Source of the DNA: a virus
Taxonomy: Duplodnaviria; Caudoviricetes
Strand: one strand, 5' to 3'
DNA: 64,000 nt
Virus record (IMG/VR): IMGVR_UViG_3300042483_000388
The position numbers and the translations under genes were made by a program. Under the pieces are notes generated by a model. The model saw only the letters and a program-made list of their open reading frames with translations, was not told where the DNA came from and did no database searches. Positions 20,264-34,904 of this stretch are shown one piece after another. Numbering within the stretch: position 1 is the first letter of the stretch; the number at the start of each line of letters is the position of its first letter.

Positions 20264-20698
20264 ATGAAAAATATACAGTATATAATATTATTTATGTTGT
20301 TTTTGGCTTCTTGTATTAAACGGGAGTTTAAACCTCAACAACCATTGGCGCCACAACCAATTATAACGGACTCAACCTTTATTGACTCTACCGTTAGTTT
20401 GAAGAACACAACTTGGGTAATTAAAAAAGTGTTAAACACTCAAATGGATGATGAGTCAAGATCCGATACACTAAAGTTTATAACCAATACAATCTATTCA
20501 TTTAATGGTGTTCAGGCAACATATAGTATTTATTCAACACCATCAGGATATAAGTTGAATTTGAATAATACTGAGTGGGGACATATTTGTGGTAACTTGG
20601 TTGATTATAATTTAACGAGTGGTAGAATTGAAAATAGACAATTTAATGATATCTTTACTAATGAATTTGTGGTTAAGATTTGGATGTATAAGGAATAG
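20264..20698 (+). CDS. lipoprotein
   Basis: MKNIQYIILFMLFLASC signal with lipobox. Confidence 0.7.
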   Translation: MKNIQYIILFMLFLASCIKREFKPQQPLAPQPIITDSTFIDSTVSLKNTTWVIKKVLNTQMDDESRSDTLKFITNTIYSFNGVQATYSIYSTPSGYKLNLNNTEWGHICGNLVDYNLTSGRIENRQFNDIFTNEFVVKIWMYKE

Positions 20699-20823
20699 TT
20701 TCTTTGTTTGATCTTTAAAATAAAGTGGTGGAGATCTGACATTCAATGTTGGTCCTAAAAAAAAGGTGGGAGAAATCTCACCTTTTTTTGTTTTGTATGT
20801 ATTTATATAATAAAAATTCTAAT

Positions 20824-21843
20824 ATGAAAAATAAATTATTTTTAGAGGAAGGAGAAATTTCAAGAATTCTTAATATGCACAAAAGGGCTATTAATGAAGA
20901 ACTTAATATTAATGGTAGAGAAGTTGGAAACAAAAGGGGTATATTAAATGAAATAACTGAAGATGAAAAGTTAACTGCAGATGGTGTCGGTACAAAAATT
21001 CAGGCATTATATAAATTTTGTAATGTTGGTATCCCCGGATTAGCTCATGTCAAATGTGCTACTGATATGAATGCTCAACTAAAGTTATTAAAAACCAAAG
21101 AACAATTTGATATTGCCGGCAAGAAAACAAGTTACTGGTATACGGGTGACTGGGCCAGAAGTTTAGGAGACTTTTTAAAACAACTAATGAAAAATGGGGT
21201 TGTTTCTCAATTATCCAAAACAGTTGGTACGCCGCAAGGTGAAATGGCTATTAAAATTGCACAAATTTATGCCTCAACATTTAAAGTTGCGGGAGGAACC
21301 TTAACTTTTAAAAAAGTTAATGACGCCAATGGTAATCCAACTTTAGATCCTGAGTCTTTTAAATTATCTTGGGGAACCCCGGCACCTATAGTAGGAGGAG
21401 GTGCAGCACCTGTAGTAACTACCAATAATGCCGCTTGTGATAAGGAGGGATTTAAACTGTCAACAAACAATAGTTGGTACTTCTCAACAAAAGAAACTTA
21501 TGATGCTGCCCCTGCGGATAAACGTAGGGCTTGGACATGTAGTTTGGATAAAAATGTAATATTGTATTGGGTGGATAGAGTTTGGCATGATACTGTTTAT
21601 ATTAAAACTAAAGGAAAAAGTGGTGGTAGTGGAACTGGTGGTGGAACTGGAGGAGGTGGTAGAACCGGAACCAGAAAAAAATACACCTTTGATGTTGCGG
21701 CAGTAAATAAATTAATAGATGAAAAATGTTCTAAGGATAAAAAACCAAATGTGGGTAGTGGAGGTATTGATCTTGATGTTACTGGTACACAAACACAAAC
21801 ACCAATACCTAATATGCCAAAAGATATACTTGGATCCTTATAA
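20824..21843 (+). CDS. leader-bearing protein, possibly degenerate annexin-like core, Gly-rich linker (copy 1)
   Basis: Start reset to MKNKLFLEE at 20824. Confidence 0.6.
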   Translation: MKNKLFLEEGEISRILNMHKRAINEELNINGREVGNKRGILNEITEDEKLTADGVGTKIQALYKFCNVGIPGLAHVKCATDMNAQLKLLKTKEQFDIAGKKTSYWYTGDWARSLGDFLKQLMKNGVVSQLSKTVGTPQGEMAIKIAQIYASTFKVAGGTLTFKKVNDANGNPTLDPESFKLSWGTPAPIVGGGAAPVVTTNNAACDKEGFKLSTNNSWYFSTKETYDAAPADKRRAWTCSLDKNVILYWVDRVWHDTVYIKTKGKSGGSGTGGGTGGGGRTGTRKKYTFDVAAVNKLIDEKCSKDKKPNVGSGGIDLDVTGTQTQTPIPNMPKDILGSL

Positions 21844-21863
21844 AACTAATAAAAAAAATAGAT

Positions 21864-22079
21864 ATGAGCAAAATTAAAATAACGCAAAGACAAATGATAA
21901 GGATCCAAAAGTTTCTTAATGAGAGCATTATTATGGAGCAAACCTCAGACGAGATTATCAATATTCAAAACAGGTTAAACTCATGTTTTAATGCTGGATT
22001 AAAAGCTGATGGTAAAATGGGACCAAAAACCGCATCGGCTATTGAAACATATACTGGTTATGATGTTTCTGTTTCATAA
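21864..22079 (+). CDS. small protein with a peptidoglycan-binding-like motif (copy 1)
   Basis: IQNRLN...LKADGKMGPKTASAI. Confidence 0.6.
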   Translation: MSKIKITQRQMIRIQKFLNESIIMEQTSDEIINIQNRLNSCFNAGLKADGKMGPKTASAIETYTGYDVSVS

Positions 22080-22209
22080 GTTTAAAAAAAAATAATAAGG
22101 GAGATCAATCTCCCTTTTTTTATGCGGTTTTTTTTGTGATATGGAAAAATACTACTATATTATTATTCTTTTTTGGTTTATCATATATTTATATAATAAA
22201 AATTATAAT

Positions 22210-23286
22210 ATGAAAAATAAATTATTTTTAGAGGAAGGGGAAATTTCAAGAATTCTTAATATGCATAAAAGGGCAATCCGAGAAGAACTTAATGTTAATG
22301 GTGATGAAGTTGAGAACAATCAAGTTCAAATGGATGAGGAATTAAGTGAAGATGGTCAAGTACAAAAAACCTTGGCCGGAGCAGCTATTGGATCCGCAGC
22401 AGGTTCTTTTATTCCTGGTGTTGGTACTGTTGCCGGAGCAATAATTGGAGGATCCATAGGTTATTTTGGTAGTTTGATGAATAGTTATAGTTTAGAGGGG
22501 GCTAAAAAAATATTACAAGCTTGTTCGGCTAAAAAAGCTGAAATGGGAGAACCAACAATGAATTCAGCGACTTTAGCTAAGATTGCTGACGATATTAACT
22601 ACGGTGTTGAAGGTAGTGGAACATATGAAAAGACTATTGCCTCAGGTTTGAGACAGACCAAATATATGCCCAATCTATGTGCTATGGCGGCAGTTTATAA
22701 ACAGAGACAAGGTGAAAGTTTATTTGATGCGATTGATGGGGACATAGATTCTGATTATCAATGGAAAACGTATGTGTTTTTGCCTTTATTAGATGTTTAT
22801 AATAATAGTGTGGAATTGGGTAAAAAAATGTTAAAACAACAACCACAACAACAAAAAACTGGAGGAGGAGGAGCACCAACATCAGGTGAGGTGTACCAAA
22901 AGTGTCACACAGCAATAATTGACCCTATGGTTAAAAAATATGGATATACTTACGTAACTTTAGATGTGTTTAATCAAGCTCCGGCCGATAAGAAAACATA
23001 TAAATGGTGTCCTGCAGGGAAGAGTAACGTATACTTCACTAAAGGATGGAGTGGTGGTAGTACTGAAACTGCACCTACTGGTACTGAAACTCGTGTTTAT
23101 AGTGGCGGAGGTGGAGGAGGTGGAAAAACATACACCTTTGATGTTGCAGCAGTAAATAAATTAATAGATGAAAAATGTTCTAAGGATGGAAAACCTGGAG
23201 GAACAGGTGTTAATCTTGATGCTACTGGCACACCAACACCAACACCAATACCTAATATGCCAAAAGACGTATTTGACATCACATAA
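22210..23286 (+). CDS. leader-bearing protein with glycine zipper and annexin-like repeat (copy 2)
   Basis: AGAAIGSAAGSFIPGVGTVAGAIIGG; IADDINYGVEGSGTYEKTI...YKQRQGESLFDAIDGD. Confidence 0.6.
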   Translation: MKNKLFLEEGEISRILNMHKRAIREELNVNGDEVENNQVQMDEELSEDGQVQKTLAGAAIGSAAGSFIPGVGTVAGAIIGGSIGYFGSLMNSYSLEGAKKILQACSAKKAEMGEPTMNSATLAKIADDINYGVEGSGTYEKTIASGLRQTKYMPNLCAMAAVYKQRQGESLFDAIDGDIDSDYQWKTYVFLPLLDVYNNSVELGKKMLKQQPQQQKTGGGGAPTSGEVYQKCHTAIIDPMVKKYGYTYVTLDVFNQAPADKKTYKWCPAGKSNVYFTKGWSGGSTETAPTGTETRVYSGGGGGGGKTYTFDVAAVNKLIDEKCSKDGKPGGTGVNLDATGTPTPTPIPNMPKDVFDIT

Positions 23287-23305
23287 AACTAATAAAAAAA
23301 TATAT

Positions 23306-23521
23306 ATGAGCAAAATTAAAATAACGCAAAGACAAATGATAAGGATCCAAAAGTTCCTTAATGAAAGTATTATTATGGAACAAACCTCAGATGAGATTAC
23401 CAATATCCAAAACAGGTTAAATACTTGTTTTAATGCTGGATTAAAAGCTGATGGTAAAATGGGACCAAAAACCGCATCGGCTATTGAAACATATACTGGT
23501 TATGATGTTTCTGTTTCATAA
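23306..23521 (+). CDS. small peptidoglycan-binding-like protein (copy 2)
   Basis: Start reset to MSKIKITQRQ at 23306; near-identical to 21864..22079. Confidence 0.65.
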   Translation: MSKIKITQRQMIRIQKFLNESIIMEQTSDEITNIQNRLNTCFNAGLKADGKMGPKTASAIETYTGYDVSVS

Positions 23522-23590
23522 GTTTAAAAAAAATAATAAGGGAGATCAATCTCCCTTTTTTTATGCGGTTTTTTTTCTTATATTTGTGAT

Positions 23591-23980
23591 ATGGAAAAAA
23601 TGATATATCTTGTTAGAGGAATACCGGGAAGTGGTAAATCAACATTTGCAAAACAACTAACTTCAAATGTGTTTGAGGCGGACCATTATTTTTATGATAA
23701 TGATGGAAACTACAATTTTATTGCGTCTGAAATAAAAGAGGCACATAAAGAGTGTCAACAATATGTTGGATACGCAATGGAATCAAACACACCAAAAATT
23801 GCGGTGTCAAACACATTCACACAAGAGTGGGAACTCCAACCTTATTATGAATTGGCAATTAAGTATGGTTATTATGTGACCTCTATTATTGTGGAAAATA
23901 GACATGGTGGTGTTAACGAGCATGGAGTTCCTGAAGATAAGATTCAATTAATGAAAAACCGTTTTGAGATAAAAATATAA
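23591..23980 (+). CDS. P-loop kinase (AAA_33/PNK-like)
   Basis: RGIPGSGKST, VSNTF, HGVPEDKI. Confidence 0.85.
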   Translation: MEKMIYLVRGIPGSGKSTFAKQLTSNVFEADHYFYDNDGNYNFIASEIKEAHKECQQYVGYAMESNTPKIAVSNTFTQEWELQPYYELAIKYGYYVTSIIVENRHGGVNEHGVPEDKIQLMKNRFEIKI

Positions 23981-23983
23981 GAA

Positions 23984-24637
23984 ATGAAATTTGATAAAAT
24001 ATTAACTAGTGGTAAGGTATGGATTACTTCAGATACGCACTATTCGCACAAAAACATTTGTAGAGGAGTTACGGTTTGGAGAACCATAGATGGGGATATT
24101 CCAATCGGTGCAACCAGAGATTTTCCTAATTTGGATGTAATGGATAGTGTTATTGTTGATAACATTAATGAGAAGGTAGGGCCTGATGATACTTTAATTC
24201 ACTTGGGTGACGTGGCTTTTGGTGGTGTTGAAAAGATAGGACAATTTTTGGATCGTTTAGTTTGTAAAAACGTTCACCTTGTTTTGGGTAATCACGATCA
24301 GAACATAAAAAAAAATAGAGAGAACAACAACGATAAATTTTTATCTATTCAAAACTACTTGGAGGTTAATATTGGTGGTGTTGATTTTGTGTTATCACAT
24401 TATCCTTTATCAAGTTGGAACCAACTAAATAAAGGTTCAATTCACCTTCATGGACACGTACATCTACCAAGAAGTAAAAGATTTGGTAAAGGTAAAAAAT
24501 TAGATGTTGGTATGGATGGTAATAATCTTTATCCGTATAGTATAAGTGAGATTGTTCATATGATGGATAAACGATGTGTTGCGTCCGAGATGAATGGAGA
24601 TCACCACTTAGATGTTATTATTGATCTTGTGGGTTAA
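23984..24637 (+). CDS. calcineurin-like metallophosphoesterase
   Basis: SDTH, HLGD, GNHD, HGHVH motifs. Confidence 0.9.
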   Translation: MKFDKILTSGKVWITSDTHYSHKNICRGVTVWRTIDGDIPIGATRDFPNLDVMDSVIVDNINEKVGPDDTLIHLGDVAFGGVEKIGQFLDRLVCKNVHLVLGNHDQNIKKNRENNNDKFLSIQNYLEVNIGGVDFVLSHYPLSSWNQLNKGSIHLHGHVHLPRSKRFGKGKKLDVGMDGNNLYPYSISEIVHMMDKRCVASEMNGDHHLDVIIDLVG

Positions 24638-24663
24638 ATCGTAATTACAATATATTTATTGGT

Positions 24664-25914
24664 ATGAGAAATATTGTTATAACTGAAAATCAATTAAGGA
24701 TAATTACGGAAGCTTTAGGGGTTCCTGATAACATTTTGGATGCTGCCGATATGTTATATGACATTGTTGAAAGAGACATCAAATCAATAAGAGACATTCA
24801 AGATGTGTATAACTTTGATGGTGAAATAGAATTTGAATTAGGTGATAAGAAAAAAATCAAAATTGATTCATATACTCTTACAGTAAAAATTGAGGAGATT
24901 GATGATGAAGAAGGGGTCTTAGATATTATCTCAATGGGAATGGAAGGTGCTTTTGGATTTAATAGGGATGTTTATATGAAAGAAAACGAACCCTCAACAA
25001 TTTTGGGATTAACAATAACATTTGCTGTTGGTGAAAATTGGAAACCTGAAGGACTTATTCAAAAAATGGAAGAAGAAAGAGACGAACATGTCGCATCTTT
25101 AGCTCATGAAATAAAACACAAATACGATAAACAATCAAAACAATTTGGTTTAATTGGTCAAGACGCCGAATATCAAGCAACACAAAGAAGAGGTAGTTTT
25201 GGAATACCGGTAATTGATAGAGTTTTTTTTAGATACTTATATTATATTTCCGGTATTGAAAATCTTGTAAGACCAACTGAAGTGGCTTACAAGTTAAAAA
25301 GAAAAAATATTACAAAGTCACAATTCAAAGAATTTTTAGAAAATAATGTAGTTTATAAAGAACTCGTTGAAATTAAAAACTTCACATTTGAAGACTTCAT
25401 CAATCAATTAAAAGAAAGTGAAGATAGGTTAGACGTTATTATTGACCACATTGGTGAAGACCCATCCAACATGACAATAGATGAAAAAATTAATAGAGTA
25501 TTAGAAGTTGCTTATATTGATTTAGTTAATAATAGAATGCAAATGTTTATGACAATGACGGAACATGGAATGGATGATGTTATAAAATTTGGAACTCAAC
25601 TTGGTATTTTACCTCCAGGGTTAGAAGGAAATTTGGAGGGAATTCAAAAGACAGATGCGATTAGACAAAAGTTTTTGAAATATGTTATGAAATACGAAAA
25701 AAACCCAACCAAATTTTTTGAAGATGAAATTGAAAACTTTCAATATGTCGCAAATAAAATGATAAAGAAAATATCAAAACTCTATGCTATGGCAAAAGAT
25801 GATGAACAAGTTAGTGAATCAATTATCAATTGGGAACTTCATCAACAAATTATGGAGAAAAAATACGGTAAAAGAAAAATAGAAACAAAATACAAAAATT
25901 GGAATCTTAAATAA
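24664..25914 (+). CDS. leader-bearing protein with HExxH motif (putative zinc metallopeptidase)
   Basis: MRNIVITENQ leader; SLAHEIKHKYD. Confidence 0.5.
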   Translation: MRNIVITENQLRIITEALGVPDNILDAADMLYDIVERDIKSIRDIQDVYNFDGEIEFELGDKKKIKIDSYTLTVKIEEIDDEEGVLDIISMGMEGAFGFNRDVYMKENEPSTILGLTITFAVGENWKPEGLIQKMEEERDEHVASLAHEIKHKYDKQSKQFGLIGQDAEYQATQRRGSFGIPVIDRVFFRYLYYISGIENLVRPTEVAYKLKRKNITKSQFKEFLENNVVYKELVEIKNFTFEDFINQLKESEDRLDVIIDHIGEDPSNMTIDEKINRVLEVAYIDLVNNRMQMFMTMTEHGMDDVIKFGTQLGILPPGLEGNLEGIQKTDAIRQKFLKYVMKYEKNPTKFFEDEIENFQYVANKMIKKISKLYAMAKDDEQVSESIINWELHQQIMEKKYGKRKIETKYKNWNLK

Positions 25915-26073
25915 TAATCTAAAGTCATAGTTTGCTCAATACATGGATTTATTAACCACTAATCTCAATTGTATTCGTATTTATTAGTGAGCTCAACCTG
26001 CCCGTGGAATATGGGGGTTTCCTAAAAAGATTCTTCAAGAGAGTAAATAATTTTAATTTTATTTATTTTTACT

Positions 26074-28815
26074 ATGAAGAATATATTGCTTGGACTTTTT
26101 GTCCTGTTTTCTACTTTCACATTTTCACAATCATGTCTCCACACTATTCGACGAACTGATACCTTTGGTGATGGTTGGAATGGAGGAACTGTAGCTGTTT
26201 CCGTTAATGGAGTAACTGTTTTATCCGGATTATCTTGTGTTGGAGCCGGTCCTACTTCTTCAACATTTAGTGCTGCAGTAGGATCAACAATTAGAGTGTA
26301 CCGAACAGCTGCCGGACTTTACCCTACAGAAATGCGTATACAAGTTCTCAGTGGTGCTGGTGCCATTATACTCAATACTGTTCAACCACTTGCTGGATCT
26401 GCAATTTCAGGAGGGTGGACAGTATTAGGAAGTTGTGCGGCAGCAGGACCTTGTACCAATACCTCATCATATGGTTCAGCTACTGCTCCATCTACACCAA
26501 CAACAGTAGTTATTAGTACATGTCAATTTCAGTCAGAGTACAGTACAATTTATTCTTGCATAGCAGGTCGAACATATCAATCGGCTTACAATTTAGGGGG
26601 ATTCATAACGGTTAGATCGGGAACATACAATGGTGCTGTAGTTGCTAGTGGAAACAGCCCACTAAATTGGGTGTGCCCAACCTCAGGAACATATTTTGTC
26701 CATTATAATACAAATAATACTTGTGGGACAGCATCTTCTTGTGGGACATCTTCTATTTCTTGTTTAACTTGTTTGGCGCCAACTGCCCCACCAAATGATT
26801 TAGTGTGTAATTCAACATCTATTACTTGTGGTCAAACACTATCAGGAACTACTATAGATGCAACCAACACTGGAACGGGTGAAGGTGGATTTTGTTCTGT
26901 AAGTCAAACACAACCCGGTGTTTGGTATGTTATTCCAGGAAACGGACAAATTATGACGGCAAATCTTTGTGCGACGGCATGGGATAGTAAAATGTCTGTA
27001 TTTAGTGGCCCTAATTGCTCTACATTGTCATGTGTTGGAGGAAATGATGATTTTGGGCCCGCTTGTGCTAGTTCGTCCGCCTCATTTTCATGGTCATCGG
27101 TAGTTGGAACAAATTACTATATATTAGTTCATGGGTATAGTGCAAGTAGTACTTTTTCTATTAACCTAACTTGTATGTCTCCCCCACCACCAAATCCTAC
27201 ATCAATATCTGCAACACAAAATACTATTTGTAATGGATCATCTACCACCCTAACCGCAAATGGTGCTGTGGGTGTGGTTTATTGGTATGTAGGAGGTTGT
27301 GCTTCCACTTTCGTATCAACCGGAAATTCCATTTCGGTAAGTCCTGCATCAACCACCACATACTACGCAAGAAATCTAAACGGAGGTCTTTTTAGTGGTG
27401 GGTGTGCTTCAACAACAATAACGGTTAATCCCAATCCCAATGTAACCATAAGTTCGGTAACCAATACAATATGTGATGGATCAAACACCCAATTAATATC
27501 TAACATTAGTGGTGTGTCATCCCCAGGAAATCTTGTTGTGACCATATCCAGTGGTGGATTCTTAGATGAAAGTTCTTGGACTTTAACAAATAGTTTAGGT
27601 GCTGTAATTGGTTCAGGTGGACCTTATGGTTTAGGGTCAACAAATATAATTCCAATCGGTTCATCGGCAAATGGTCCATACACACTTAATGTGGAAACTC
27701 AAGGAATATGGAATGACAACACGGCAAATTATTTGGTAACTTGTAACGGAACAACGGTCCTAAGTGGAAGTTTAGTTGGTGGGCAGAGCATAACACAATC
27801 AATCTCATCTTGTGGGTCTTCTCCTGGTGTAACATATCTATGGACACCTTCAAACGGACTTACAAATGCAAGTGCCCCAAGTCCATTTGCTTCTCCTACG
27901 ACTACACAGACCTATCAGTTAACCGTAACTGCAAATGGGTGTTCAGTATCAACCTCCACAACAATAACCGTAAATCCTTCTGTTGGTTTTGTGTCTACAA
28001 TATCTGGTAATAATACCATAATTGCCGGAACACAAGGAAGTTATTCAATAACACCGGTAGCAAACTCAAATTATCAATGGGCATACACCGAGTCCGTAAC
28101 TGTGCCACTATGGATAAACGTTCCGAACTCTAACTCACCATCAATAACATTTACTTGGCCACAGACAACAACTAATGGTTCGGCTAGAGTTATTATCAGT
28201 AATGCTTATGGGTGTGGAACTCAAACCAGATTTTTTAATATTGTTACTAATGGTGCTCTTCCTGTTGAACTATTAAGTTTTGTTGGGGTTTGTGATAACA
28301 ATTTAATATCATTAACTTGGAAAACGGCAAGTGAACATAATTCTGATTATTTTGAAGTTCTTAAATCAAGAGATGGTTTAAATTGGTCAATATTAACCAC
28401 TTTAAATTCGGCTGGTAATTCAACCCAAGAATTAACTTATACCACAAAAGATGAAAACGCCATTGACGGGGATAACTATTATAAACTTCTTCAATATGAT
28501 ATTGATGGACAATCAAAAGAGTATGGGCCAATAAATGTAATGTGTAATGAAAACAAAAAAGGTTACTTTTCAATATTTCCTAATCCAAGTTCAGGATCTT
28601 TCCAAGTTGTGTTAAACAATAAAAATATGGTTGGTGATGGAAAATTAATTATTAAAGACACAAAAGGATCTGAAATACTTAATAAAGAAATTAATATTGT
28701 TTCAGGGATTAATTTATATAATATTGGAGATTTAAATATGGTGGATGGAATTTATTATGTTCAGGTAAGTAACGGAAATTTTTCAACACAAGTAATAAAA
28801 CAAATAATAAAATAA
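26074..28815 (+). CDS. T9SS type A sorting-domain cargo protein (signal peptide, beta-sandwich/Ig-like domains)
   Basis: MKNILLGLFVLFSTFTFS-Q signal; DTFGDGWNGG; SPASTTTYYA; LPVELLSF; C-terminal SIFPNPSSG...GIYYVQV...KQIIK. Confidence 0.88.
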   Translation: MKNILLGLFVLFSTFTFSQSCLHTIRRTDTFGDGWNGGTVAVSVNGVTVLSGLSCVGAGPTSSTFSAAVGSTIRVYRTAAGLYPTEMRIQVLSGAGAIILNTVQPLAGSAISGGWTVLGSCAAAGPCTNTSSYGSATAPSTPTTVVISTCQFQSEYSTIYSCIAGRTYQSAYNLGGFITVRSGTYNGAVVASGNSPLNWVCPTSGTYFVHYNTNNTCGTASSCGTSSISCLTCLAPTAPPNDLVCNSTSITCGQTLSGTTIDATNTGTGEGGFCSVSQTQPGVWYVIPGNGQIMTANLCATAWDSKMSVFSGPNCSTLSCVGGNDDFGPACASSSASFSWSSVVGTNYYILVHGYSASSTFSINLTCMSPPPPNPTSISATQNTICNGSSTTLTANGAVGVVYWYVGGCASTFVSTGNSISVSPASTTTYYARNLNGGLFSGGCASTTITVNPNPNVTISSVTNTICDGSNTQLISNISGVSSPGNLVVTISSGGFLDESSWTLTNSLGAVIGSGGPYGLGSTNIIPIGSSANGPYTLNVETQGIWNDNTANYLVTCNGTTVLSGSLVGGQSITQSISSCGSSPGVTYLWTPSNGLTNASAPSPFASPTTTQTYQLTVTANGCSVSTSTTITVNPSVGFVSTISGNNTIIAGTQGSYSITPVANSNYQWAYTESVTVPLWINVPNSNSPSITFTWPQTTTNGSARVIISNAYGCGTQTRFFNIVTNGALPVELLSFVGVCDNNLISLTWKTASEHNSDYFEVLKSRDGLNWSILTTLNSAGNSTQELTYTTKDENAIDGDNYYKLLQYDIDGQSKEYGPINVMCNENKKGYFSIFPNPSSGSFQVVLNNKNMVGDGKLIIKDTKGSEILNKEINIVSGINLYNIGDLNMVDGIYYVQVSNGNFSTQVIKQIIK

Positions 28816-28861
28816 GAAAATATCTTTATAATATTAAATTAAAGTCATAAAAAGAATATAA

Positions 28862-28890
28862 AGCCCCCAAATAAAAAGTGGGGGTTTTTT
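28862..28890 (+). terminator. intrinsic terminator
   Basis: gcccccaaataaaaagtgggggtttttt. Confidence 0.65.
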
Positions 28891-28924
28891 GTTTTTATTA
28901 GAAAAACTTTATTATCTTTGTATT

Positions 28925-29113
28925 GTGAAAAAACCATGCAAAGAATGTCCCCACGTTATTAAGAATCGTCATAATGATATGATTGTTGAATTTGGTCGTA
29001 GGACCGGCAAACAACATAATTGTCATATGACAGAGGGTGTAAAAGATTTGTGGAATGTTACAGATAAAAAATTAGAATGTTATGGATCAAAGGAGATATC
29101 AAATGGAAAGTAA
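28925..29113 (+). CDS. small Cys-rich protein (KPCKECP...CHM...C)
   Basis: GTG start 4 nt after TATCTTTG. Confidence 0.6.
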   Translation: MKKPCKECPHVIKNRHNDMIVEFGRRTGKQHNCHMTEGVKDLWNVTDKKLECYGSKEISNGK

Positions 29114-29462
29114 AGAATGTGGTCACGAGGATAGGTGTAATTGCGTAACAAAATACCCAATGCCTGAGTATGATCCATACACAGGAGAAAAAAATCCGTT
29201 ATTGGAAACTACCACAAAACCGGTTAAAGATAAATCACACCAAATGGTTAGAGAATTTATATACGGAGTGTGTGATAAGACTGGATCTTGTGATTCCTAC
29301 TTTGGGTTTTTCAAAAATGAAAAAGATGCTGAACACGAAGTTGAGGTTCAATCTAATAGACTCAAGGAAGACTTGGGTATGATGGAAATTGAGATAAAAA
29401 AAGATAGAGCATTGTTTAACAATAAATTAGTAATAGTAATTCATTCATATGTGTTAAGATGA
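29103..29462 (+). CDS. hypothetical protein; C-half paralogous to 33458..33703
   Basis: IYGV.D..G.CD.YFG.FKN motif shared. Confidence 0.6.
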   Translation: MESKECGHEDRCNCVTKYPMPEYDPYTGEKNPLLETTTKPVKDKSHQMVREFIYGVCDKTGSCDSYFGFFKNEKDAEHEVEVQSNRLKEDLGMMEIEIKKDRALFNNKLVIVIHSYVLR

Positions 29463-30286
29463 TAAACCCAACAGGAAAAAAATTAGAAAAAATTATCTTT
29501 AAATTGTTTGACGATGCAAGTCAAGGTGTTGATAGATATAATCACAATGGCAGTCTATGGGCTATCTTTACCGATGAAATGAGATGGGTTGTTGAATACA
29601 CTAAAGACCAAACTCTATGGTATAACTATAACTTCTTTAAAGATGAGATGGATTTAATTGGTTTGGATTGTGTTGAAAATAAAGACCTTATTCAAAAATG
29701 GTTTGAGTCAAGATTCTTAAATATTAATTCAGTTGAAGACACCATTCAAAATGGGGTGAAACACACCCATTCAAACCCAATTCCCTTGACTTTCTCTGTT
29801 GAAGACACCATTCAAAATGGGGTGAAACACACCGAGGAGGGATTGAGGCCTGATGACTCTGACGTTGAAGATACCATTCAAAATGGGGTGAAACACACCC
29901 TAGACATCGAACATGGGAATTATCTAAAGGTTGAAGACACCATTCAAAATGGGGTAAGACACACCCGGACAAGTTTCTTAAATCCATCCCTGCTAGTTGA
30001 AGACACCATTCAAAATGGGGTGAAAGAAACAACACCTAGTGGTTATTTGGGTTCAATAGAGATGAAAGGTAAAATAGTTCATCAAATTGAATCTCCAAAA
30101 CAAAATAATGAGGTTGAAGACACCATTCAAAATGGTGTGAAAGAGACTATTGGCACACTACGGCGTACTGCTAAGTGGGGTGTTGATGACATCATCCAAA
30201 ATGGTGTAAAAGAAACTCATGACGATTGTTCAAATAACATTGCAAGAGTTGAAGGTATAGTTAGAATAGGTGAAAAATTAAATTAA
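29459..30286 (+). CDS. protein with a C-terminal in-frame repeat-spacer array (VEDTIQNGVKHT x7)
   Basis: 275-aa ORF open through all repeats and spacers. Confidence 0.8.
   Translation: MINPTGKKLEKIIFKLFDDASQGVDRYNHNGSLWAIFTDEMRWVVEYTKDQTLWYNYNFFKDEMDLIGLDCVENKDLIQKWFESRFLNINSVEDTIQNGVKHTHSNPIPLTFSVEDTIQNGVKHTEEGLRPDDSDVEDTIQNGVKHTLDIEHGNYLKVEDTIQNGVRHTRTSFLNPSLLVEDTIQNGVKETTPSGYLGSIEMKGKIVHQIESPKQNNEVEDTIQNGVKETIGTLRRTAKWGVDDIIQNGVKETHDDCSNNIARVEGIVRIGEKLN
29732..30217. CRISPR. CRISPR-like array inside a CDS: 36-nt repeats, 30-nt spacers; repeat resembles type VI-B direct repeats
   Basis: Repeats at 29732, 29798, 29864, 29930, 29996 (66-nt period); degenerate copies at 30113 and 30182, remnant at 30248; consensus GTTGAAGACACCATTCAAAATGGGGTGAAACACACC; no cas gene in the window. 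Confidence 0.5.
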
Positions 30287-30334
30287 TAATAGAAGTAGTA
30301 AACATTATTAGAAAATAATACGTATATTTGTGGA

Positions 30335-30511
30335 ATGGAAAAAGAAGATAAAATAGAAATTAATGTAAAAAATGGTGACAATTTTCATATGGATAAAGAT
30401 GTGTATATTCAATGGTTAAAAGCATTTATGGTACTAAATCTTGAAAAAGAGAATTATGATGAGTGTGCCAAGTTAAGGGATGAAATAAAATCTTTAGGTG
30501 AAGATTTTTAA
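30335..30511 (+). CDS. small UVR (UvrB/UvrC motif) domain protein
   Basis: Hand-translated 58 aa ending LEKENYDECAKLRDEIKSLGEDF. Confidence 0.6.
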   Translation: MEKEDKIEINVKNGDNFHMDKDVYIQWLKAFMVLNLEKENYDECAKLRDEIKSLGEDF

Positions 30512-30525
30512 AATAATAAATTGTT

Positions 30526-31590
30526 ATGAAAACAAGAGAAACAAAATTTGGAACATATATAGAAATGGAAACAGAAACAAGCACAAAATTAACTGGTGAT
30601 AAGATTACGGTATTTGTGGAAAGATTGAAAAAAATTGGAATTGAAGTTAAACTATCAGGAAACTTTCCTTGGGTATATATTACTGAAATCTGTGGTAAAA
30701 GAGTAACTGAAAAGTTTGAAGGGAATCACGGGTTTACATTAATATTTTTACCAGGTAGAAACGATAGCCCACCATCTGATTTTACTGATATTACAGAGAT
30801 ATTTAAACTAATAAGAAAATATACAAATGAAACTAATTAAATTAACATCATATAGTGACAACGGTCCCATCTACATTAATATAAATGAAATCGGACATTT
30901 CAACGAAGGAGAAGGATACAAAATGAATTCTAATGGTGTGGGACATAAAATGGAAAAATATACACAAGTAGGTGTAACAACACATAATGATGGTGGTTTT
31001 AAAGTTAAAGAAACACCATCAGAAATAATTGATAAAATTTGGAACCTAATTAATAAACGAATAATATGAATTTAGACAAACTAACAATGGACGAACTTAT
31101 TTCATTAAGAAATGAAATTCAAGGAAAAATACATTCCTATGAAGATGGGTATTTGTATATCTGTTCTGTTCGTCAGTTTGGTAGTGTGTGGGAAGAAAAA
31201 CCAAGTAGTTTATATGGTTTAAAAGAACTTTGTGATTCATATTACGGTGACAATGGTATTGTTGATGTTTATACTAACAACCCAAATTTAGAATTTCCTG
31301 AAATGGAGTTTGAAAACTATGGTGACGTTATGTTTATTAAATCAGAAGATGATTACCGTGACTGGGTTAAATACAACAAAGAAAAAAACTTTATTGATGA
31401 TGTAACACAACGACTTGATGAGTGGGATGAAAGTAAAAATTCACCATTTAAATATCGCCCTTCTTTTGCGCCAATTTGGACAAGAGAAGATCTTAATGAA
31501 TGGGTTACAGAGTTTGAAAGTAAGACATGGGATTTTACCGAACCAAAATCTATGAAGATAAATTATTCCGAAGAAGATGGTGAAGATTAA
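30526..31590 (+). CDS. three coupled hypothetical genes (30526..30840, 30827..31069, 31066..31590)
   Basis: Overlapping or abutting ATG ORFs. Confidence 0.65.
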
Positions 31591-31614
31591 AAAAATAATT
31601 AATATATTTGTAAT

Positions 31615-32025
31615 ATGGAAAAAGTTAAAATTTATTTAGATGATGTTCGTACGCCGGTAGACCCAAGTTGGGTCGTTGTTCGTTCTTACGATGAGTTTGT
31701 TGAAAAAATAAATGAGATTGGTTTGGAGAACATTGAACTAATATCTTTGGATCACGATTTGGGTGATAGTGCAATTGATGAATGGAAAAAAAATGTTTAT
31801 ACAAATTACACAATTGATTACGATAACATTACAGAAAAAACAGGTATGGATTGCACTAAATGGTTAGTGAATCAATGGTTAGATGGTAAACCTATCGTTG
31901 AGGTTGTGGTTCATTCTGCAAACGCAGTAGGGTCGGGTAATATGATGGGTTATTTGAATAATTACCGACACTTGAATAGAATGGAACAAAATTGTGTTAG
32001 AGTTAAAATTGAACATACAGTATAA
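31615..32025 (+). CDS. cyclic-phosphate-processing receiver-like domain protein
   Basis: KIYLDDVRTP, ISLDHDLG, TGMDCTKWL, HSAN motifs. Confidence 0.8.
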   Translation: MEKVKIYLDDVRTPVDPSWVVVRSYDEFVEKINEIGLENIELISLDHDLGDSAIDEWKKNVYTNYTIDYDNITEKTGMDCTKWLVNQWLDGKPIVEVVVHSANAVGSGNMMGYLNNYRHLNRMEQNCVRVKIEHTV

Positions 32026-32035
32026 AAATAAAATT

Positions 32036-32296
32036 ATGGAATTAGAAAAATTTGAACAAGCAAAAAAAGTTAAAGAAGATCTTGATAGATTGGAAAGACA
32101 GAAGTATAAATTAGAATCTGCTCTTAAATCTCATGGGTTGGAAGTAACTATTGAGTTTACCCATTCAGGTGGATTCATAAGAAAAGATGAGGTCAGTTTT
32201 AGGGATAAAGATATTACCAAAGAAATGTTATCAAGGGTACTTGAAAAGTTGAATGAAGAAATAAAGTTAGTTAAAGAAGAATTTGAAAAAGTATAA
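32036..32296 (+). CDS. hypothetical coiled-coil protein
   Basis: Start reset to MELEKF at 32036. Confidence 0.65.
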   Translation: MELEKFEQAKKVKEDLDRLERQKYKLESALKSHGLEVTIEFTHSGGFIRKDEVSFRDKDITKEMLSRVLEKLNEEIKLVKEEFEKV

Positions 32297-32299
32297 GAA

Positions 32300-33418
32300 A
32301 TGGAAAATTTAAATAGTGTATGTTATGTTGGTGCAATCGGAGAGGTTAGGCCAATAGAAGGGGCAGATAACATAGAACTTGTAATGGTTGGTGGTTGGAA
32401 CGCTATAACTAAAAAAGGTGAATATACAGAAGGTGATTTGGTTGTTGTTGCAACCACCGATGCGGTAATACCACAAAAACTTTCTGATGGGTTAGGTGTT
32501 ACAAGTTATCTTCGTAAAGGTCAGAGAGTAAGAACTATAAAACTTCGTAAGGTTTACTCTGAATGTTTAATAATACCAATAGAGTTTGTTCCGGAAAAAT
32601 ATAGGTACGATGGTTCTGACTGCATGGAGTTACTTGAAGTTTTCAAATACGAACCACCTGTTAAGATGGTTCAGTTAAGTGGGGGTAGGAAATTTAAATA
32701 CCACCAAAACCCTAACTTCCATATCTATTACAAATTTCCTAACTTGAAGAACGCCCCCGAAATGTTTAATGAAGAAGACATAGTTACTGTTACTCGTAAA
32801 CTTCACGGAACAAATGCTCGTTATGGTATTGTTAAAAAGAAAAGATTATCCTTGTGGGACTATGTTAGAAAGTTCTTTGGAAACAAATGGGTTGGGTATG
32901 AATATGTTTTTGGGTCTCATAATGTAGAGAAAGGTTCTGACTCTCAAGGTTTTTATGAAACTAATGTATGGAGAACAATCGCAGATAATTACAAAATAAA
33001 AGATAAACTATGGGATTATGTTAAGACATATGGTAGTCCTGACTATTTGGGTGATGGGTTAATCATCTATGGTGAGATATATGGTCATGGTATACAAAAA
33101 AATTATGATTATGGTTTAACTGATGTTAAATTTGCTGGTTTTGATGTTGAGTTAAATGGTAATTATCGACCTTATTACGATGAAAAGAACGTTTTCAAAT
33201 CTTTGGGTTTACCAAGAGTTGAGGTTCTTTATATGGGTCCTTGGTCCAAAGAAGAACAAGATAAACACGTATTCAATAACAACATAATGGGAACCAAAGT
33301 TCCTCACGAAGGTGTTGTTGTTAAATCCGTAACCGGTGATAGACACAAAGTAGGTAAAGTGATCAACCCTGATTATTTGATAGCAAGTGAAAAACATAAT
33401 TTTGGTGACTCCCATTGA
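32300..33418 (+). CDS. RNA ligase (Rnl2/DRB0094-like family)
   Basis: N-terminal OB-like IEGADNIE; KLHGTN motif I; YGEIYG; FAGFDV; EGVVVK; KVINPDYL. Confidence 0.9.
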   Translation: MENLNSVCYVGAIGEVRPIEGADNIELVMVGGWNAITKKGEYTEGDLVVVATTDAVIPQKLSDGLGVTSYLRKGQRVRTIKLRKVYSECLIIPIEFVPEKYRYDGSDCMELLEVFKYEPPVKMVQLSGGRKFKYHQNPNFHIYYKFPNLKNAPEMFNEEDIVTVTRKLHGTNARYGIVKKKRLSLWDYVRKFFGNKWVGYEYVFGSHNVEKGSDSQGFYETNVWRTIADNYKIKDKLWDYVKTYGSPDYLGDGLIIYGEIYGHGIQKNYDYGLTDVKFAGFDVELNGNYRPYYDEKNVFKSLGLPRVEVLYMGPWSKEEQDKHVFNNNIMGTKVPHEGVVVKSVTGDRHKVGKVINPDYLIASEKHNFGDSH

Positions 33419-33436
33419 TGGAGTCACTTTTTTTGA
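33410..33436 (+). terminator. intrinsic terminator overlapping the stop codon
   Basis: gtgactcc-cattgat-ggagtcac plus T-tract. Confidence 0.7.
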
Positions 33437-33457
33437 TTAATATTAATTAAAATTATA

Positions 33458-33897
33458 ATGAGTAGAGATAAAGATATGATTTATGGTGTCTATGACATGA
33501 CAAGAGGATCTGGTGGTTGTGATGATTATTTTGGATATTTTAAAAATAAATCAGGAGCTAAAAAAGAATTGGACATCCAATATGAATATATTAAACGTAA
33601 AAGACCTGAAGATGCAATAACATTAACAAATGATAGAGTTATAATTACTAAAGGTGAAAAGGAAGACATATTAATTATCATCCACCCAATTTTATTAAGA
33701 TGACAAAACAGGAAGTTTATGTAAGAATGGCAAATGAGAGTGTTTATTATAGTAGAATAAAGGTAAACCCTGAAAAATTTGAGAATCCACACTTTATTGG
33801 TGAAGAAGTATTTTGCACGATAGATGGTTTAAGGGTGGCAATTAAAAAGGTTGATTGGAACCAAATGGTGGAAAACACAAAACAAGAACAATTTTAA
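33458..33897 (+). CDS. two small hypothetical genes (33458..33703, 33700..33897)
   Basis: ATGA-coupled ORFs. Confidence 0.6.
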
Positions 33898-33908
33898 AAA
33901 AAATAAAA

Positions 33909-34904
33909 ATGACAAAGGAAGATTTATTAATAGAAAAAATTAAACAAATAAGAATGGCACATGAGGGATTTACCGAAAATGAAATATCCGCAGATGATGT
34001 AACATTTTTACATAAAGATGATGAACCTGTAATTTCGGCATCACCAACATGTTGGGGAACATTACCTGATGAAGAGTTCATACCGGCATTTGAATCAGTA
34101 CCACAGGTACCAGCAGGTATCTATGAGATTAAATGGAACCGAGACGCTCAAAAACATTCATTAAAAAGACAACCATTCAAGACTGATGAGTTGTATCAAT
34201 TACCATCATACGAGATTATGGATATTCTAAAAGACATTAAAAACTTTTGGGATCGTAAGGACAAATACAAAGAGTATAATTTTATTCATAAACGAGGGAT
34301 ACTTATGTATGGAGAACCAGGTTGTGGTAAATCGGGGATAATCCAACTAATTGCAAAAGATTTGATCGAACAAAATGGTATTATATTAAATATTAAAGAT
34401 GCTGATGATGTTGAATTTTTTATTGAATTTATTACCACATTTAGAAAGATTGAAAAAAATAGACCGTTGATTGTTTTGTTGGAGGATATTGATTCAATTG
34501 CTGGCGAGAATAACCATTCAACAAGTAAGTTATTAAACATTTTGGATGGTGTTAAACAGATTGAAGGTGTTGTATATATTGCAACTACTAACTATCCTGA
34601 GAAACTACAGGATCGTATTACAAACCGACCATCTCGTTTCGATAGACGATATAAAGTAGAATTACCTAATGAAGAAATTAGAAGAGCATATATTCATCAT
34701 AAATTAAACGATGAAGACCTTAAAGGTGTTGATATTGAAATGTGGATAAAGAGAACTGAAGGAATGTCTCTTTCACACTTGAAAGAAGTTGTTATTTCAA
34801 CGATAGTTATGGGTAGAGATTTTGAAGATGTTATGGATAATTTAGAAGGACTTAAAAGAGCTCCAACAATTAAAGGATCTGGAGTTATGGGATTTGGAAG
34901 ATAA
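33909..34904 (+). CDS. AAA+ ATPase
   Basis: GEPGCGKS Walker A, LLEDID Walker B, LLNILDG, ATTNYPEKL, RPSRFD; start reset to MTKEDL. Confidence 0.92.
   Translation: MTKEDLLIEKIKQIRMAHEGFTENEISADDVTFLHKDDEPVISASPTCWGTLPDEEFIPAFESVPQVPAGIYEIKWNRDAQKHSLKRQPFKTDELYQLPSYEIMDILKDIKNFWDRKDKYKEYNFIHKRGILMYGEPGCGKSGIIQLIAKDLIEQNGIILNIKDADDVEFFIEFITTFRKIEKNRPLIVLLEDIDSIAGENNHSTSKLLNILDGVKQIEGVVYIATTNYPEKLQDRITNRPSRFDRRYKVELPNEEIRRAYIHHKLNDEDLKGVDIEMWIKRTEGMSLSHLKEVVISTIVMGRDFEDVMDNLEGLKRAPTIKGSGVMGFGR

What the first reader, a model, noticed from the sequence alone, without database searches (positions are those of the whole stretch)
26074..28815. Phage-encoded 913-aa cargo for the host type IX secretion system
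Seen: Sec signal ending in S-Q, Cys/Thr/Ser-rich beta-sandwich modules, an LPVELLSF module and a T9SS type A C-terminal domain; composition looks less AT-rich than the flanks. Established: T9SS is essentially restricted to Bacteroidota (FCB group) and anchors such proteins on the cell surface. Inference: the phage decorates the infected cell surface (adhesin, superinfection exclusion, or grazer/aggregate interaction). No catalytic motif was recognised.
Basis: partly seen in the sequence, partly recalled or inferred. Interest (0 to 1): 0.7.

Follow-up and report, generated by a model that had tools for sequence, protein, structure and literature searches.

The report
Huge-phage lectin-like T9SS cargo gene
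A very large lake-water phage of Bacteroidota carries an optional gene for a cysteine-rich, non-enzymatic binding protein with both export tags of the host's type IX secretion pathway, so infected cells probably display or release a phage protein. Genes of this kind have been noted in phages before, and none has been tested.

Summary
ORF 26074-28815 (+) encodes a 913-aa protein with these parts:
- a Sec signal ending S|Q (the Bacteroidota "Q-rule")
- three N-terminal beta-sandwich binding modules, the third with a PPC/collagen-binding-domain fold
- Ig-like modules and an Fn3-like "LPVELLSF" module
- a C-terminal T9SS type A sorting domain

The sorting domain scores just under the curated cut-offs in this copy. 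Orthologues score above them, the family profile hits solved T9SS CTDs, and the predicted fold superposes on them.

The higher G+C comes from amino-acid composition (GC2 0.53). GC3 equals the flanks, so it is no sign of foreign DNA.

A host chimera is excluded. Independent assemblies are identical across both junctions, and the gene sits in the same slot in related 216-292 kb viral contigs.

It is an accessory gene. 24 of 51 evaluable relatives carry it, it has its own terminator, and its modules come and go. The closest cellular homologue is in a freshwater Flavobacteriia MAG that has SprA.

No catalytic domain was found. The most likely reading is a phage-supplied surface or secreted lectin/adhesin exported by Sec and then T9SS. 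Its benefit to the phage is unknown.

Phage T9SS cargo is already in the literature (de Jonge 2019, Bellas 2020), and this scan has noted it on many other genomes. This is a new member of a known kind, of moderate interest.

The parts
25915..26073 (+). 159-bp intergenic spacer upstream of the gene; presumed promoter region, no promoter identified
   Evidence: Gap between ORF 24664..25914 and the start codon. The sigma-70 scan found no more sites than shuffled sequence.
26074..28815 (+). CDS of the 913-aa T9SS cargo (P0001)
   Evidence: ORF list and translation. About 500 homologues at 53-92% identity. Syntenic in phage contigs.
26074..26127 (+). Sec/SPI signal peptide, aa 1-18. Predicted cleavage T-F-S|Q exposes Gln19 (Bacteroidota Q-rule).
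   Evidence: Sequence. S18 and Q19 invariant. 'SQ' in 104/105 members. Q-rule described in PMC5837995.
26131..26442 (+). Module A, aa 20-123: beta-sandwich with the T-D-T-x-G-D-G-W-N-G-G motif, CBM-like
   Evidence: AF2 model with pLDDT 94.5. Weak fold match to a Ca-dependent CBM, 2XHH, Z 7.8. Recurs as a shuffled module in many proteins.
26443..26784 (+). Module B, aa 124-237: Cys-rich jelly-roll, CBM-like
   Evidence: Z 6-7 to CBM6 and an alginate-binding CBM. Invariant Cys at 127, 150, 217, 223, 230 and 233.
26785..27183 (+). Module C, aa 238-370: PPC (pre-peptidase C-terminal) / collagen-binding-domain fold
   Evidence: VIA-align: 3JQW (ColH CBD) Z 11.8, rmsd 2.5, 106 aligned; 1NQD Z 11.6; 5SV5 (PPC) Z 10.4. 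Relatives of this module carry Pfam PPC and GBD_T9SS_assoc.
27190..27432 (+). Ig_7 domain (Ig-like, CHU_C-associated), aa 373-453
   Evidence: Pfam PF19081, 36.1 bits against a cut-off of 27.3.
27511..27828 (+). Module D, aa 480-585: optional second module with a motif like that of module A (D-E-S-S-W)
   Evidence: Present in 13/111 family members. Alignment gap in the roughly 817-aa class. Lake contigs with a joint 27509>27831 replace it by 12 nt.
27829..28254 (+). Two further conserved beta-rich modules, aa 586-636 and 637-727; Ig-like by sequence pattern, not folded here
   Evidence: Conserved at 77-82% mean pairwise identity. No Pfam hit.
28255..28563 (+). Fn3-like 'A-L-P-V-E-L-L-S-F' module, aa 728-830
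   Evidence: AF2 model with pLDDT 90. Fn3 matches at Z about 10.8, rmsd 2.1-2.7. tblastn hits in 460-640 kb uncultured phages.
28564..28812 (+). T9SS type A C-terminal sorting domain, aa 831-913
   Evidence: TIGR04183 22.7 bits (cut-off 23) and PF18962 20.8 bits (cut-off 27), both over the full profile. Family profile against 8GLK_D at E 2e-9. Model superposes on 8GLK_D at Z 10.6, rmsd 2.1, 75/75, and on 8QB1 at Z 10.5. Invariant P-N-P and G-x-Y.
28855..28896 (+). Terminator-like hairpin followed by a T-run, 40 nt after the stop codon
   Evidence: Sequence. RNAfold gives -15.5 kcal/mol. The pattern scan missed it because the loop is 9 nt.

Best explanation
This is an accessory (moron-like) gene of an uncultured lake-water phage of more than 200 kb that infects a Bacteroidota host, probably in Flavobacteriia.

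Proposed pathway:
1. The 913-aa product is made in the infected cell.
2. Its signal peptide takes it through Sec. Signal peptidase I cuts it so that Gln19 becomes the new N-terminus (Q-rule).
3. It folds in the periplasm with many disulfides.
4. Its C-terminal type A sorting domain hands it to the host's type IX translocon (SprA with PorV).
5. It ends up displayed on the outer surface or released.

The passenger is not an enzyme. It is a stalk of Ig/Fn3-like modules carrying three N-terminal beta-sandwich binding modules (two CBM-like, one PPC/collagen-binding-domain-like). That is a lectin- or adhesin-type binder.

Most likely it changes what the infected cell sticks to, or what can reach its surface.

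What is shown, and what is inferred:
- Shown here: gene integrity, phage context, accessory status, domain identities, family-level CTD membership.
- Inferred: actual export, anchoring versus release, the ligand and the benefit to the phage.
For: Phage context:
- The same slot (416-aa ORF, then the gene, then small ORFs and RNA ligase) is found in the 216-292 kb contigs L103, L106 and L135 and in the 66-kb contig L092.
- The large IMG/VR records G001-G003 (262-292 kb), which hold the gene, have a terminase and 84-99% CheckV completeness.
- The identical protein lies on 7 contigs of 0.2-1 Mb.
- Phage genes flank it: polynucleotide-kinase-like ATPase, phosphoesterase, RNA ligase, endolysin.

Not a chimera:
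- Four independent Logan contigs are 99.7-100% identical over window 25043-29760.
- Contigs from other lake runs bridge both junctions.
- GC3 equals the flanks.

Export signals:
- SQ cleavage site in 104/105 members and 24 conserved Cys positions.
- CTD profile hit to the F. johnsoniae NucA CTD seen in the translocon structure 8GLK, E 2e-9.
- Fold match at Z 10.6, rmsd 2.1 A, 75/75 residues, 31% identity.
- Orthologues score above the Pfam cut-off.

Binder, not enzyme:
- The model of residues 20-372 (pLDDT 94.5) is three beta-sandwiches.
- The PPC/CBD match is Z 11.8.
- Of 54 distant relatives of these modules, 27 carry Por_Secre_tail, 12 GBD_T9SS_assoc and 8 PPC. No catalytic domain was among the families hit.

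Accessory gene:
- 24 of 51 relatives have it in the slot and the others have the slot empty.
- It has its own terminator.

Host link:
- The closest cellular homologue (63% identity over residues 5-829) lies in a Flavobacteriia MAG, next to RecJ and a T9SS subtilase.
- That MAG encodes SprA.
Against: No experiment or expression data exist; no RNA run is on record as holding the stretch.

This copy's CTD is marginally below both curated cut-offs.

27 of 111 family members have the CTD replaced by a tail of about 35 residues. The passenger may therefore also work without classical T9SS export, or those copies are decaying.

The host is not identified directly.

The ligand is unknown. Fold matches for modules A and B are weak (Z 6-8).
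Confidence: 0.72

Rival explanations
1. Superinfection exclusion or receptor masking. The exported protein covers or replaces T9SS-dependent surface structures that other phages, or the phage's own progeny, use as receptors. Alternatively it competes for the translocon and so depletes host adhesins. Export is as in the best explanation; only the purpose differs.
For: - Flavobacterium mutants resistant to phage map to gliding-motility and T9SS genes, so T9SS-dependent surface components matter for adsorption (titles and abstracts of 10.1101/2020.10.02.323337 and PMC9804748).
- The gene is accessory, and its modules vary within one lake. This fits an arms-race locus.
- Bellas et al. proposed exclusion for Cryophage cargo.
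Against: - The passenger modules are the best-conserved part (72-82% mean identity) and the CTD the least (60%). That points to a conserved ligand rather than fast diversification.
- Nothing links the protein to a receptor.
Confidence: 0.2
2. The sorting domain is not used for T9SS export. The protein stays in the periplasm or the inner face of the outer membrane, or the CTD is a relic Ig-like domain.
For: - This copy scores under the curated cut-offs.
- A quarter of the family has lost most of the CTD yet keeps an intact passenger.
Against: - The CTD motifs P-N-P and G-x-Y are invariant, and the basic C-terminal end is conserved, across 41 diverse sequences.
- The profile hits solved CTDs at E 2e-9, and the fold match covers 75/75 residues.
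- 84 of 111 members keep the full CTD.
Confidence: 0.08
3. A virion component: an Ig-like decoration or fibre protein that binds glycans, as on many phage capsids and tails.
For: - Ig-like, Fn3-like and CBM-like modules are common on virions.
- The Fn3-like module has tblastn matches in other huge phages.
Against: - A cleavable Sec signal following the Q-rule, 24 conserved Cys positions (disulfides need the periplasm) and a T9SS CTD do not fit assembly in the cytoplasm.
- The gene lies among nucleic-acid-metabolism genes, not structural genes.
- It is absent from half of the relatives.
Confidence: 0.04
4. Host DNA misassembled into a phage contig, or a bacterial contig mistaken for a phage.
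For: - The local G+C rise.
- The close cellular homologue L013.
- IMG/VR labels two related records 'provirus'.
Against: - GC3 is identical to the flanks.
- Junctions are identical in independent assemblies and bridged in other lake runs.
- The slot is conserved in related viral contigs, including three of 216-292 kb, and the large records that hold the gene have a terminase.
- The flanks of L013 share nothing with the window.
Confidence: 0.01

Closest known systems
T9SS type A cargo genes of 'Cryophage' (Bellas et al. 2020, Nat Commun, PMC7468147)
   Same: - Phage-encoded proteins with a T9SS type A sorting domain.
- Flexible or variable genes.
- Proposed to hijack the host's T9SS, with superinfection exclusion or surface change suggested.
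   Different: - The Cryophage cargoes are an endoglucanase, a GH39 and a PA14 protein. This one has no enzyme domain and is built from CBM-like, PPC, Ig and Fn3 modules.
- It sits in phages of more than 200 kb in temperate lakes.
- It forms a large family of about 500 protein clusters.
T9SS sorting-domain proteins next to BACON-repeat ORFs in crAss-like gut phages (de Jonge et al. 2019, Viruses, PMC6949934)
   Same: A phage of Bacteroidota encoding carbohydrate-binding-type repeats together with a T9SS sorting domain. Function is left open.
   Different: - Gut phages of about 100 kb.
- BACON repeats near head or tail genes.
- No relation in sequence to this family was seen.
Type A CTD substrates of Flavobacterium johnsoniae, e.g. 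NucA, whose CTD is resolved in the SprA translocon complex (PDB 8GLK)
   Same: - The C-terminal 75-83 residues share 31% identity.
- Profile E 2e-9; fold Z 10.6, rmsd 2.1 A over 75/75 residues.
- The same Sec-then-T9SS route is expected.
   Different: - Cellular proteins with enzymatic passengers.
- Here the gene is carried by a phage and the passenger is a binder.
Cellular homologue in a Lac Pavin Flavobacteriia MAG (locus L013, 1200 aa)
   Same: - 63% identity over residues 5-829.
- The same A-B-C-Ig_7 order, 595 bits to the family N-terminal profile.
- It is followed by an ALK_LTK_GRD protein, as in phage relatives L010 and L120.
   Different: - Chromosomal context: RecJ and a T9SS subtilase.
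- Longer, with no Pfam CTD hit.
- In the tree it falls among the phage sequences, with unresolved branching, so the direction of transfer is open.
Collagen-binding domains (PPC fold) of clostridial collagenases ColG/ColH (PDB 1NQD, 3JQW)
   Same: Module C has the same beta-sandwich fold: Z 11.6-11.8, rmsd 2.3-2.5 A, 103-106 residues.
   Different: - Only 16% identity.
- No collagenase.
- The ligand here is unknown; a shared fold does not show a shared ligand.

Membership tests
T9SS type A CTD cargo (TIGR04183 / PF18962) | C-terminal domain scores at or above the curated HMM cut-off | tested here: inconclusive
   This copy scores TIGR04183 22.7 against 23 and PF18962 20.8 against 27, over the full-length profile. 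Orthologues in relatives score 30.1 and 34.5 bits, and most homologues carry a precomputed PF18962 hit.
T9SS type A CTD cargo (TIGR04183 / PF18962) | Sequence homology of the extreme C-terminus to experimentally established CTDs | tested here: met
   The profile of 41 family C-termini hits 8GLK_D (F. johnsoniae NucA CTD) at E 2e-9 and 8GLJ_D at 2.5e-5. It also hits PorZ (5M11) at 8e-4 and the mirolase CTD (8QB1) at 2.5e-3.
T9SS type A CTD cargo (TIGR04183 / PF18962) | Compact Ig-like beta-sandwich at the very C-terminus with the conserved motifs (P-N-P near strand 1, G-x-Y in a late strand, basic/hydrophobic end) | tested here: met
   In the AF2 model (pLDDT 90), residues 831-913 superpose on 8GLK_D at Z 10.6, rmsd 2.1, 75/75, and on 8QB1 at Z 10.5. 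P109, N110, P111, G165 and Y167 are invariant in A4. The protein ends K-Q-I-I-K.
T9SS type A CTD cargo (TIGR04183 / PF18962) | N-terminal Sec signal peptide | tested here: met
   By sequence and a hydrophobicity heuristic only, as no SignalP was available. The S|Q site is conserved in 104/105 members.
T9SS type A CTD cargo (TIGR04183 / PF18962) | Producer cell has a T9SS | not testable with these tools
   The host is not identified. Indirect evidence: the Q-rule, and the closest cellular homologues lie in Flavobacteriia and Crocinitomicaceae MAGs that both encode SprA at 509-519 bits.
T9SS type A CTD cargo (TIGR04183 / PF18962) | Export depends on T9SS and the CTD is removed | not testable with these tools
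   Needs expression in a T9SS-proficient strain and its mutants.
PPC, pre-peptidase C-terminal domain (PF04151), for module C | PPC beta-sandwich fold and HMM match | tested here: inconclusive
   The fold criterion is met: 3JQW Z 11.8, 5SV5 Z 10.4. The Pfam PPC HMM does not hit P0001 itself, though it hits 8 of 54 relatives of the module.
Ig_7 (PF19081) | HMM score above the gathering threshold | tested here: met
   36.1 bits against 27.3, residues 373-453.
Phage moron / flexible accessory gene | Present or absent at a fixed slot among close relatives; own transcription signals; not needed for virion or replication | tested here: met
   24 of 51 evaluable relatives carry it, and in the others the slot is empty or holds only a small DPBB-like ORF. 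There is a 159-bp upstream spacer and a terminator hairpin. No promoter was identified.

The most novel reading that the evidence does not exclude
The gene may be a cell-surface arms-race locus of lake megaphages. On this reading, a host-derived adhesin is exported through the host's own T9SS to re-dress the infected cell. Three kinds of variation would then reflect ongoing selection by competing phages or by host receptor change:
- presence or absence of the gene in half of the relatives
- in-lake gain or loss of module D
- replacement of the sorting domain by a short tail

The protein could, for example, exclude phages that adsorb to T9SS-dependent adhesins, or glue infected cells to uninfected hosts or particles to aid transmission.
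Probability: 0.15. Interest if true: 0.7.

Novelty: new member of a known kind. Interest (0 to 1): 0.4.

Why it matters
T9SS cargo genes in phages would mean that a virus reprogrammes the outer surface or the secretome of Bacteroidota, major degraders of particles and polysaccharides in lakes, while the cell is still alive. This family is abundant:
- about 500 protein clusters
- 58 IMG/VR contigs
- 20 lake metagenome runs that hold this allele

It is cleanly defined, non-enzymatic, and has a close cellular counterpart. That makes it a convenient test case for whether phage cargo is really exported by the host T9SS, and what it binds. The idea itself is not new. The value lies in a well-characterised, testable example and in the population-level modularity.

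Tried and rejected
- Megablast of window 20000-35000 against GenBank phages found no match.
- PHROGs gave no family for the protein.
- No whole genome is held for the window, so 'own' genome searches were impossible. There are no tRNAs in the window.
- The decamer T-A-A-A-G-T-C-A-T-A occurs both before and after the gene. It is not enriched (8 matches against 13 expected), so it was dropped as a promoter candidate. The sigma-70 scan did no better than shuffles.
- ESM Atlas feature hits scored 0.76-0.88. They were used only as leads to GBD_T9SS_assoc and PPC.
- Foldseek hits to whole multi-domain models have rmsd 10-20 A and only reflect strings of beta-sandwiches. The per-domain VIA-align rows were used instead.
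- Sequencing runs: no RNA holder is listed, so nothing can be said on expression.
- The search for PorP/SprF (PF11751) in five related phage records found nothing, but nothing rang in the controls either, so it is uninformative.
- The tree of the A-B-C region (37 rows) leaves the basal branches unresolved and is only midpoint-rooted. It cannot tell host-to-phage from phage-to-host transfer.
- tblastn of the ALK_LTK_GRD, PKD_6 and CHU_C genes of relative L010 against the window gave no real match, so that three-gene set is absent here.
- Complex prediction was not used. A CTD with a stand-in translocon from another host would be uninformative.
Full report
**1. What is there**

The window is A+T-rich (about 30% G+C). 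Nearly all genes lie on the + strand, with a steady positive GC skew. ORF 26074..28815 (+) is the longest in the window at 913 aa. It is preceded by a 159-bp spacer. Forty nucleotides after the stop there is a G+C-rich hairpin with a T-run (-15.5 kcal/mol). So it looks like a self-contained transcription unit.

It comes entirely from the second codon position (GC2 0.534). GC3 is 0.209, the same as the neighbours. The rise reflects a protein with 13.8% Ser, 12.5% Thr, 10.7% Gly and 3.2% Cys, not foreign DNA.

**2. Is it phage, and is the assembly sound?**

Neighbouring genes match phage families:
- ATPase / polynucleotide-kinase type, phosphoesterase and RNA ligase
- endolysin
- DNA methylase and a glutamine-synthetase-like protein

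The identical protein lies on 11 contigs, 7 of them between 0.2 and 1 Mb.

IMG/VR holds 58 viral contigs with a relative. Three large records that carry the gene (262, 272 and 292 kb) and a fourth (436 kb) that matches only its C-terminal part (residues 720-913) are 84-99% complete by CheckV, and each has a large terminase.

In L092, L103, L106 and L135 the gene occupies the same slot as here. It lies downstream of the 416-aa ORF and upstream of small ORFs and the RNA ligase. The flanking proteins are 57-98% identical (also L001-L003).

Four independently assembled Logan contigs are 99.7-100% identical to window 25043-29760, across both junctions. Contigs of further lake-water runs bridge the junctions: X7 record 8 spans 25400-28985, X8 records 18 and 22, and X9 record 30. 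A host chimera is therefore excluded for practical purposes.

**3. Anatomy**

*Signal peptide.* Residues 1-18 form a typical Sec signal, with predicted cleavage T-F-S|Q. S18-Q19 is invariant in a 20-sequence alignment, and 'SQ' stands there in 104 of 105 family members. Exposure of Gln after signal peptidase I cleavage is the Bacteroidota 'Q-rule' (PMC5837995). Others have used it as a sign that phage proteins are adapted to a Bacteroidota host's export machinery (PMC10367356).

*N-terminal binding modules.* An AlphaFold2 model of residues 20-372 (70-sequence alignment, pLDDT 94.5) shows three beta-sandwiches.
- Module C (238-370) has the PPC/collagen-binding-domain fold: 3JQW Z 11.8, rmsd 2.5 A, 106 residues; 1NQD Z 11.6; 5SV5 Z 10.4.
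- Modules A (20-123, with the G-D-G-W-N-G-G motif) and B (124-237) give only weak matches to carbohydrate-binding modules (Z 6-8).

*Middle region.* Next come Ig_7 (373-453; Pfam 36.1 bits) and further conserved beta-rich modules. Module D (480-585) is optional.

*C-terminal region.* A model of 728-913 (pLDDT 90.3) shows an Fn3-like module (728-830; Z about 10.8) followed by a domain (831-913) that superposes on two solved T9SS CTDs:
- the NucA CTD from the F. johnsoniae T9SS translocon structure 8GLK: Z 10.6, rmsd 2.1 A, 75 of 75 residues, 31% identity
- the T. forsythia mirolase CTD 8QB1: Z 10.5

*Cysteines and enzymes.* Twenty-four Cys positions are conserved in essentially every member. 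This argues for folding in an oxidising compartment. No catalytic family was detected by Pfam, NCBIfam, PHROGs or fold comparison.

**4. The sorting domain**

In this copy the HMM scores fall just under the curated cut-offs: TIGR04183 22.7 against 23, and PF18962 20.8 against 27. Both cover the whole profile. Three further results settle the matter at family level:
- Orthologues in related phage records score 30.1 and 34.5 bits, and most homologues carry a precomputed PF18962 hit.
- A profile of 41 diverse C-termini hits solved CTDs: 8GLK_D at E 2e-9, 8GLJ_D at 2.5e-5, PorZ at 8e-4 and mirolase at 2.5e-3.
- The motifs P-N-P and G-x-Y are invariant.

I therefore file the protein as a type A T9SS cargo by sequence and fold. 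Export itself remains untested.

**5. The family and its relatives**

About 500 metagenome proteins match at 53-92% identity. There are several length classes: about 915, 817, 765, 626 and 1345 aa.

Within 111 members of 700-1000 aa:
- the passenger modules are the most conserved part (72-82% mean pairwise identity)
- the Fn3 module and the CTD are the least conserved (64% and 60%)
- module D is present in 13
- the full CTD is present in 84

In the rest the CTD is replaced by a tail of about 35 residues.

Lake contigs with a joint 27509>27831, where 12 nt replace module D, show that both forms coexist in the same waters.

An exhaustive search with residues 20-372 finds 3826 representative clusters. 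In these, modules A, B and C recur as shuffled repeats, up to 13 per protein. Of 54 such proteins, 27 carry Por_Secre_tail, 12 GBD_T9SS_assoc and 8 PPC, and no catalytic domain was among the families hit. These are the usual building blocks of Bacteroidota surface and secreted binders.

**6. Accessory status**

I used the upstream 416-aa ORF as a marker. Of 51 related viral contigs with enough downstream sequence, 24 carry the gene in the slot and 27 do not. In those 27 the slot is empty or holds only a small secreted DPBB-like ORF. Two contigs (L141, L199) keep the C-terminal part but have a different passenger. The gene is thus a flexible, moron-like element, as Bellas et al. described for their cargo genes.

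**7. Cellular counterpart and host**

In one genome per GTDB species, only one locus has the full A-B-C architecture at a comparable score (595 bits against 553-691 for phage copies; the next best is 217). This is L013, in a Flavobacteriia MAG from Lac Pavin. It is 63% identical over residues 5-829.

Its context is chromosomal: RecJ, a subtilase with SprB repeat and T9SS CTD, and downstream a giant ALK_LTK_GRD/Ig_7 protein. It shares no flanking genes with the window.

Some phage relatives (L010/L120, L098, L140) also have an ALK_LTK_GRD gene right after the cargo gene. This hints that a two-gene block moved between cell and phage.

In a maximum-likelihood tree L013 falls among the phage sequences, but the basal forks are unresolved and the root is arbitrary, so the direction is open.

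The L013 genome, and the Crocinitomicaceae MAG with the next-best hit, both encode SprA.

Taken together with the Q-rule, the host is most likely a freshwater member of Flavobacteriia. This is inference. Earlier notes of this scan on the same genome reached the same host phylum by other routes, which I did not re-test.

**8. How it most likely works**

- Shown: an intact, conserved, phage-borne accessory gene encoding a Sec signal, a disulfide-rich non-enzymatic binder and a type A CTD.
- Inferred from established T9SS biology (my own knowledge, and the reviews cited in PMC7468147 and PMC11285876): Sec export, periplasmic folding, recognition of the CTD by the SprA/PorV translocon, then either CTD removal with attachment to the surface, or release.
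- Inferred function: a lectin- or adhesin-type protein that alters what the infected cell binds or what can reach it.

I put export through T9SS at about 0.7. I put 'binder, not enzyme' at about 0.7. Any specific benefit (adhesion to particles or cells, superinfection exclusion) rates at 0.3 or less.

The rivals are exclusion or receptor masking, an unused relic CTD, a virion component, and a chimera. They are scored in their own section.

**9. Comparison with what is known, and novelty**

Phage-encoded T9SS sorting-domain proteins have been reported in two places:
- crAss-like gut phages (de Jonge et al. 2019, PMC6949934)
- 'Cryophage', where three variable genes (an endoglucanase, a GH39 and a PA14 protein) carry type A domains, and hijacking of the host T9SS was proposed (Bellas et al. 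2020, PMC7468147)

This scan has noted the same kind of gene on many other genomes: 217 notes hold the words, including jumbo-phage cases.

What is particular here:
- a large family with a non-enzymatic passenger, in lake phages of more than 200 kb
- a fixed but optional slot
- module gain and loss within populations
- a near-orthologous chromosomal copy in a Flavobacteriia MAG
- companions in related phages: type B (CHU_C) cargo in every large record searched, and a second, unrelated type A cargo in one

These are refinements, not a new kind of system. My verdict is a new member of a known kind, with interest about 0.4.

Noticed in passing
window 27509-27831: Contigs from two other lake runs (X9, X14) join 27509 to 27831, with 12 other letters in between. 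That form lacks module D (about 107 aa). Forms of the gene with and without module D therefore coexist in lake populations, matching the roughly 915-aa and 817-aa classes.
   Followed up: partly
L010:12461-14669 (also L120, L098, L140): In some relatives the cargo gene is followed by three small genes, each with its own signal peptide: an ALK_LTK_GRD protein (349 aa), a PKD_6 protein (188 aa) and a 190-aa protein that is little more than a CHU_C (T9SS type B) sorting domain. The first two end in ...S-H-N and ...Q-H-N. This looks like a type B cargo split into separate genes. The set is absent from this window.
   Followed up: partly
L223:3644-5626 (G002, 292-kb relative): A second, unrelated T9SS type A cargo (frame of 661 aa, Pfam CTD 51 bits) lies about 10 kb from the orthologue. 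All four large related records also hold at least one CHU_C (type B) protein, three of them in frames of about 820 aa.
   Followed up: partly
P0020, P0096, P0107; L106:9980-11866: About a quarter of the family (27/111) has the CTD replaced by a tail of about 35 residues, with a recurring pattern (L-L-G-Q-E-I ... G-I-I-I-E-I-Y-x-D-G ... K-I-I-K). It is unknown whether this is a minimal sorting signal or a loss.
   Followed up: no
window 20264-20698 and 44819-45268: Two more exported small proteins. One is lipoprotein-like, with a signal ending L-A-S-C. The other is a 149-aa protein whose signal ends A-Q (Q-rule again). Neither has a Pfam family.
   Followed up: no
window 17164-18294: A phage ORF with both glutamine synthetase domains (Gln-synt_N at 8.5e-11, Gln-synt_C at 1.6e-18). 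It is conserved in relatives L092 and L135.
   Followed up: no
window 29754-29966 (- strand): Three copies of the same short hairpin (G-G-G-T-G-T-G-T-T-T-C-A-C-C-C) inside ORF 29459-30286. This is the repeat array already reported by another finding of this scan (e1-5322154).
   Followed up: no
L042 (Candidatus Gracilibacteria bacterium S5_H10 contig): tblastn match of 37% identity to residues 729-913 (Fn3-like module plus CTD) in a genome labelled as a CPR bacterium, a group not known to have T9SS. It may be contamination or a mis-binned contig.
   Followed up: no
LR756500.1, LR756502.1, LR756504.1, LR745206.1 (uncultured phages, 462-642 kb): The Fn3-like L-P-V-E-L-L-S-F module alone (residues about 729-840) has 34-42% identical tblastn matches in four unannotated huge-phage genomes.
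   Followed up: no
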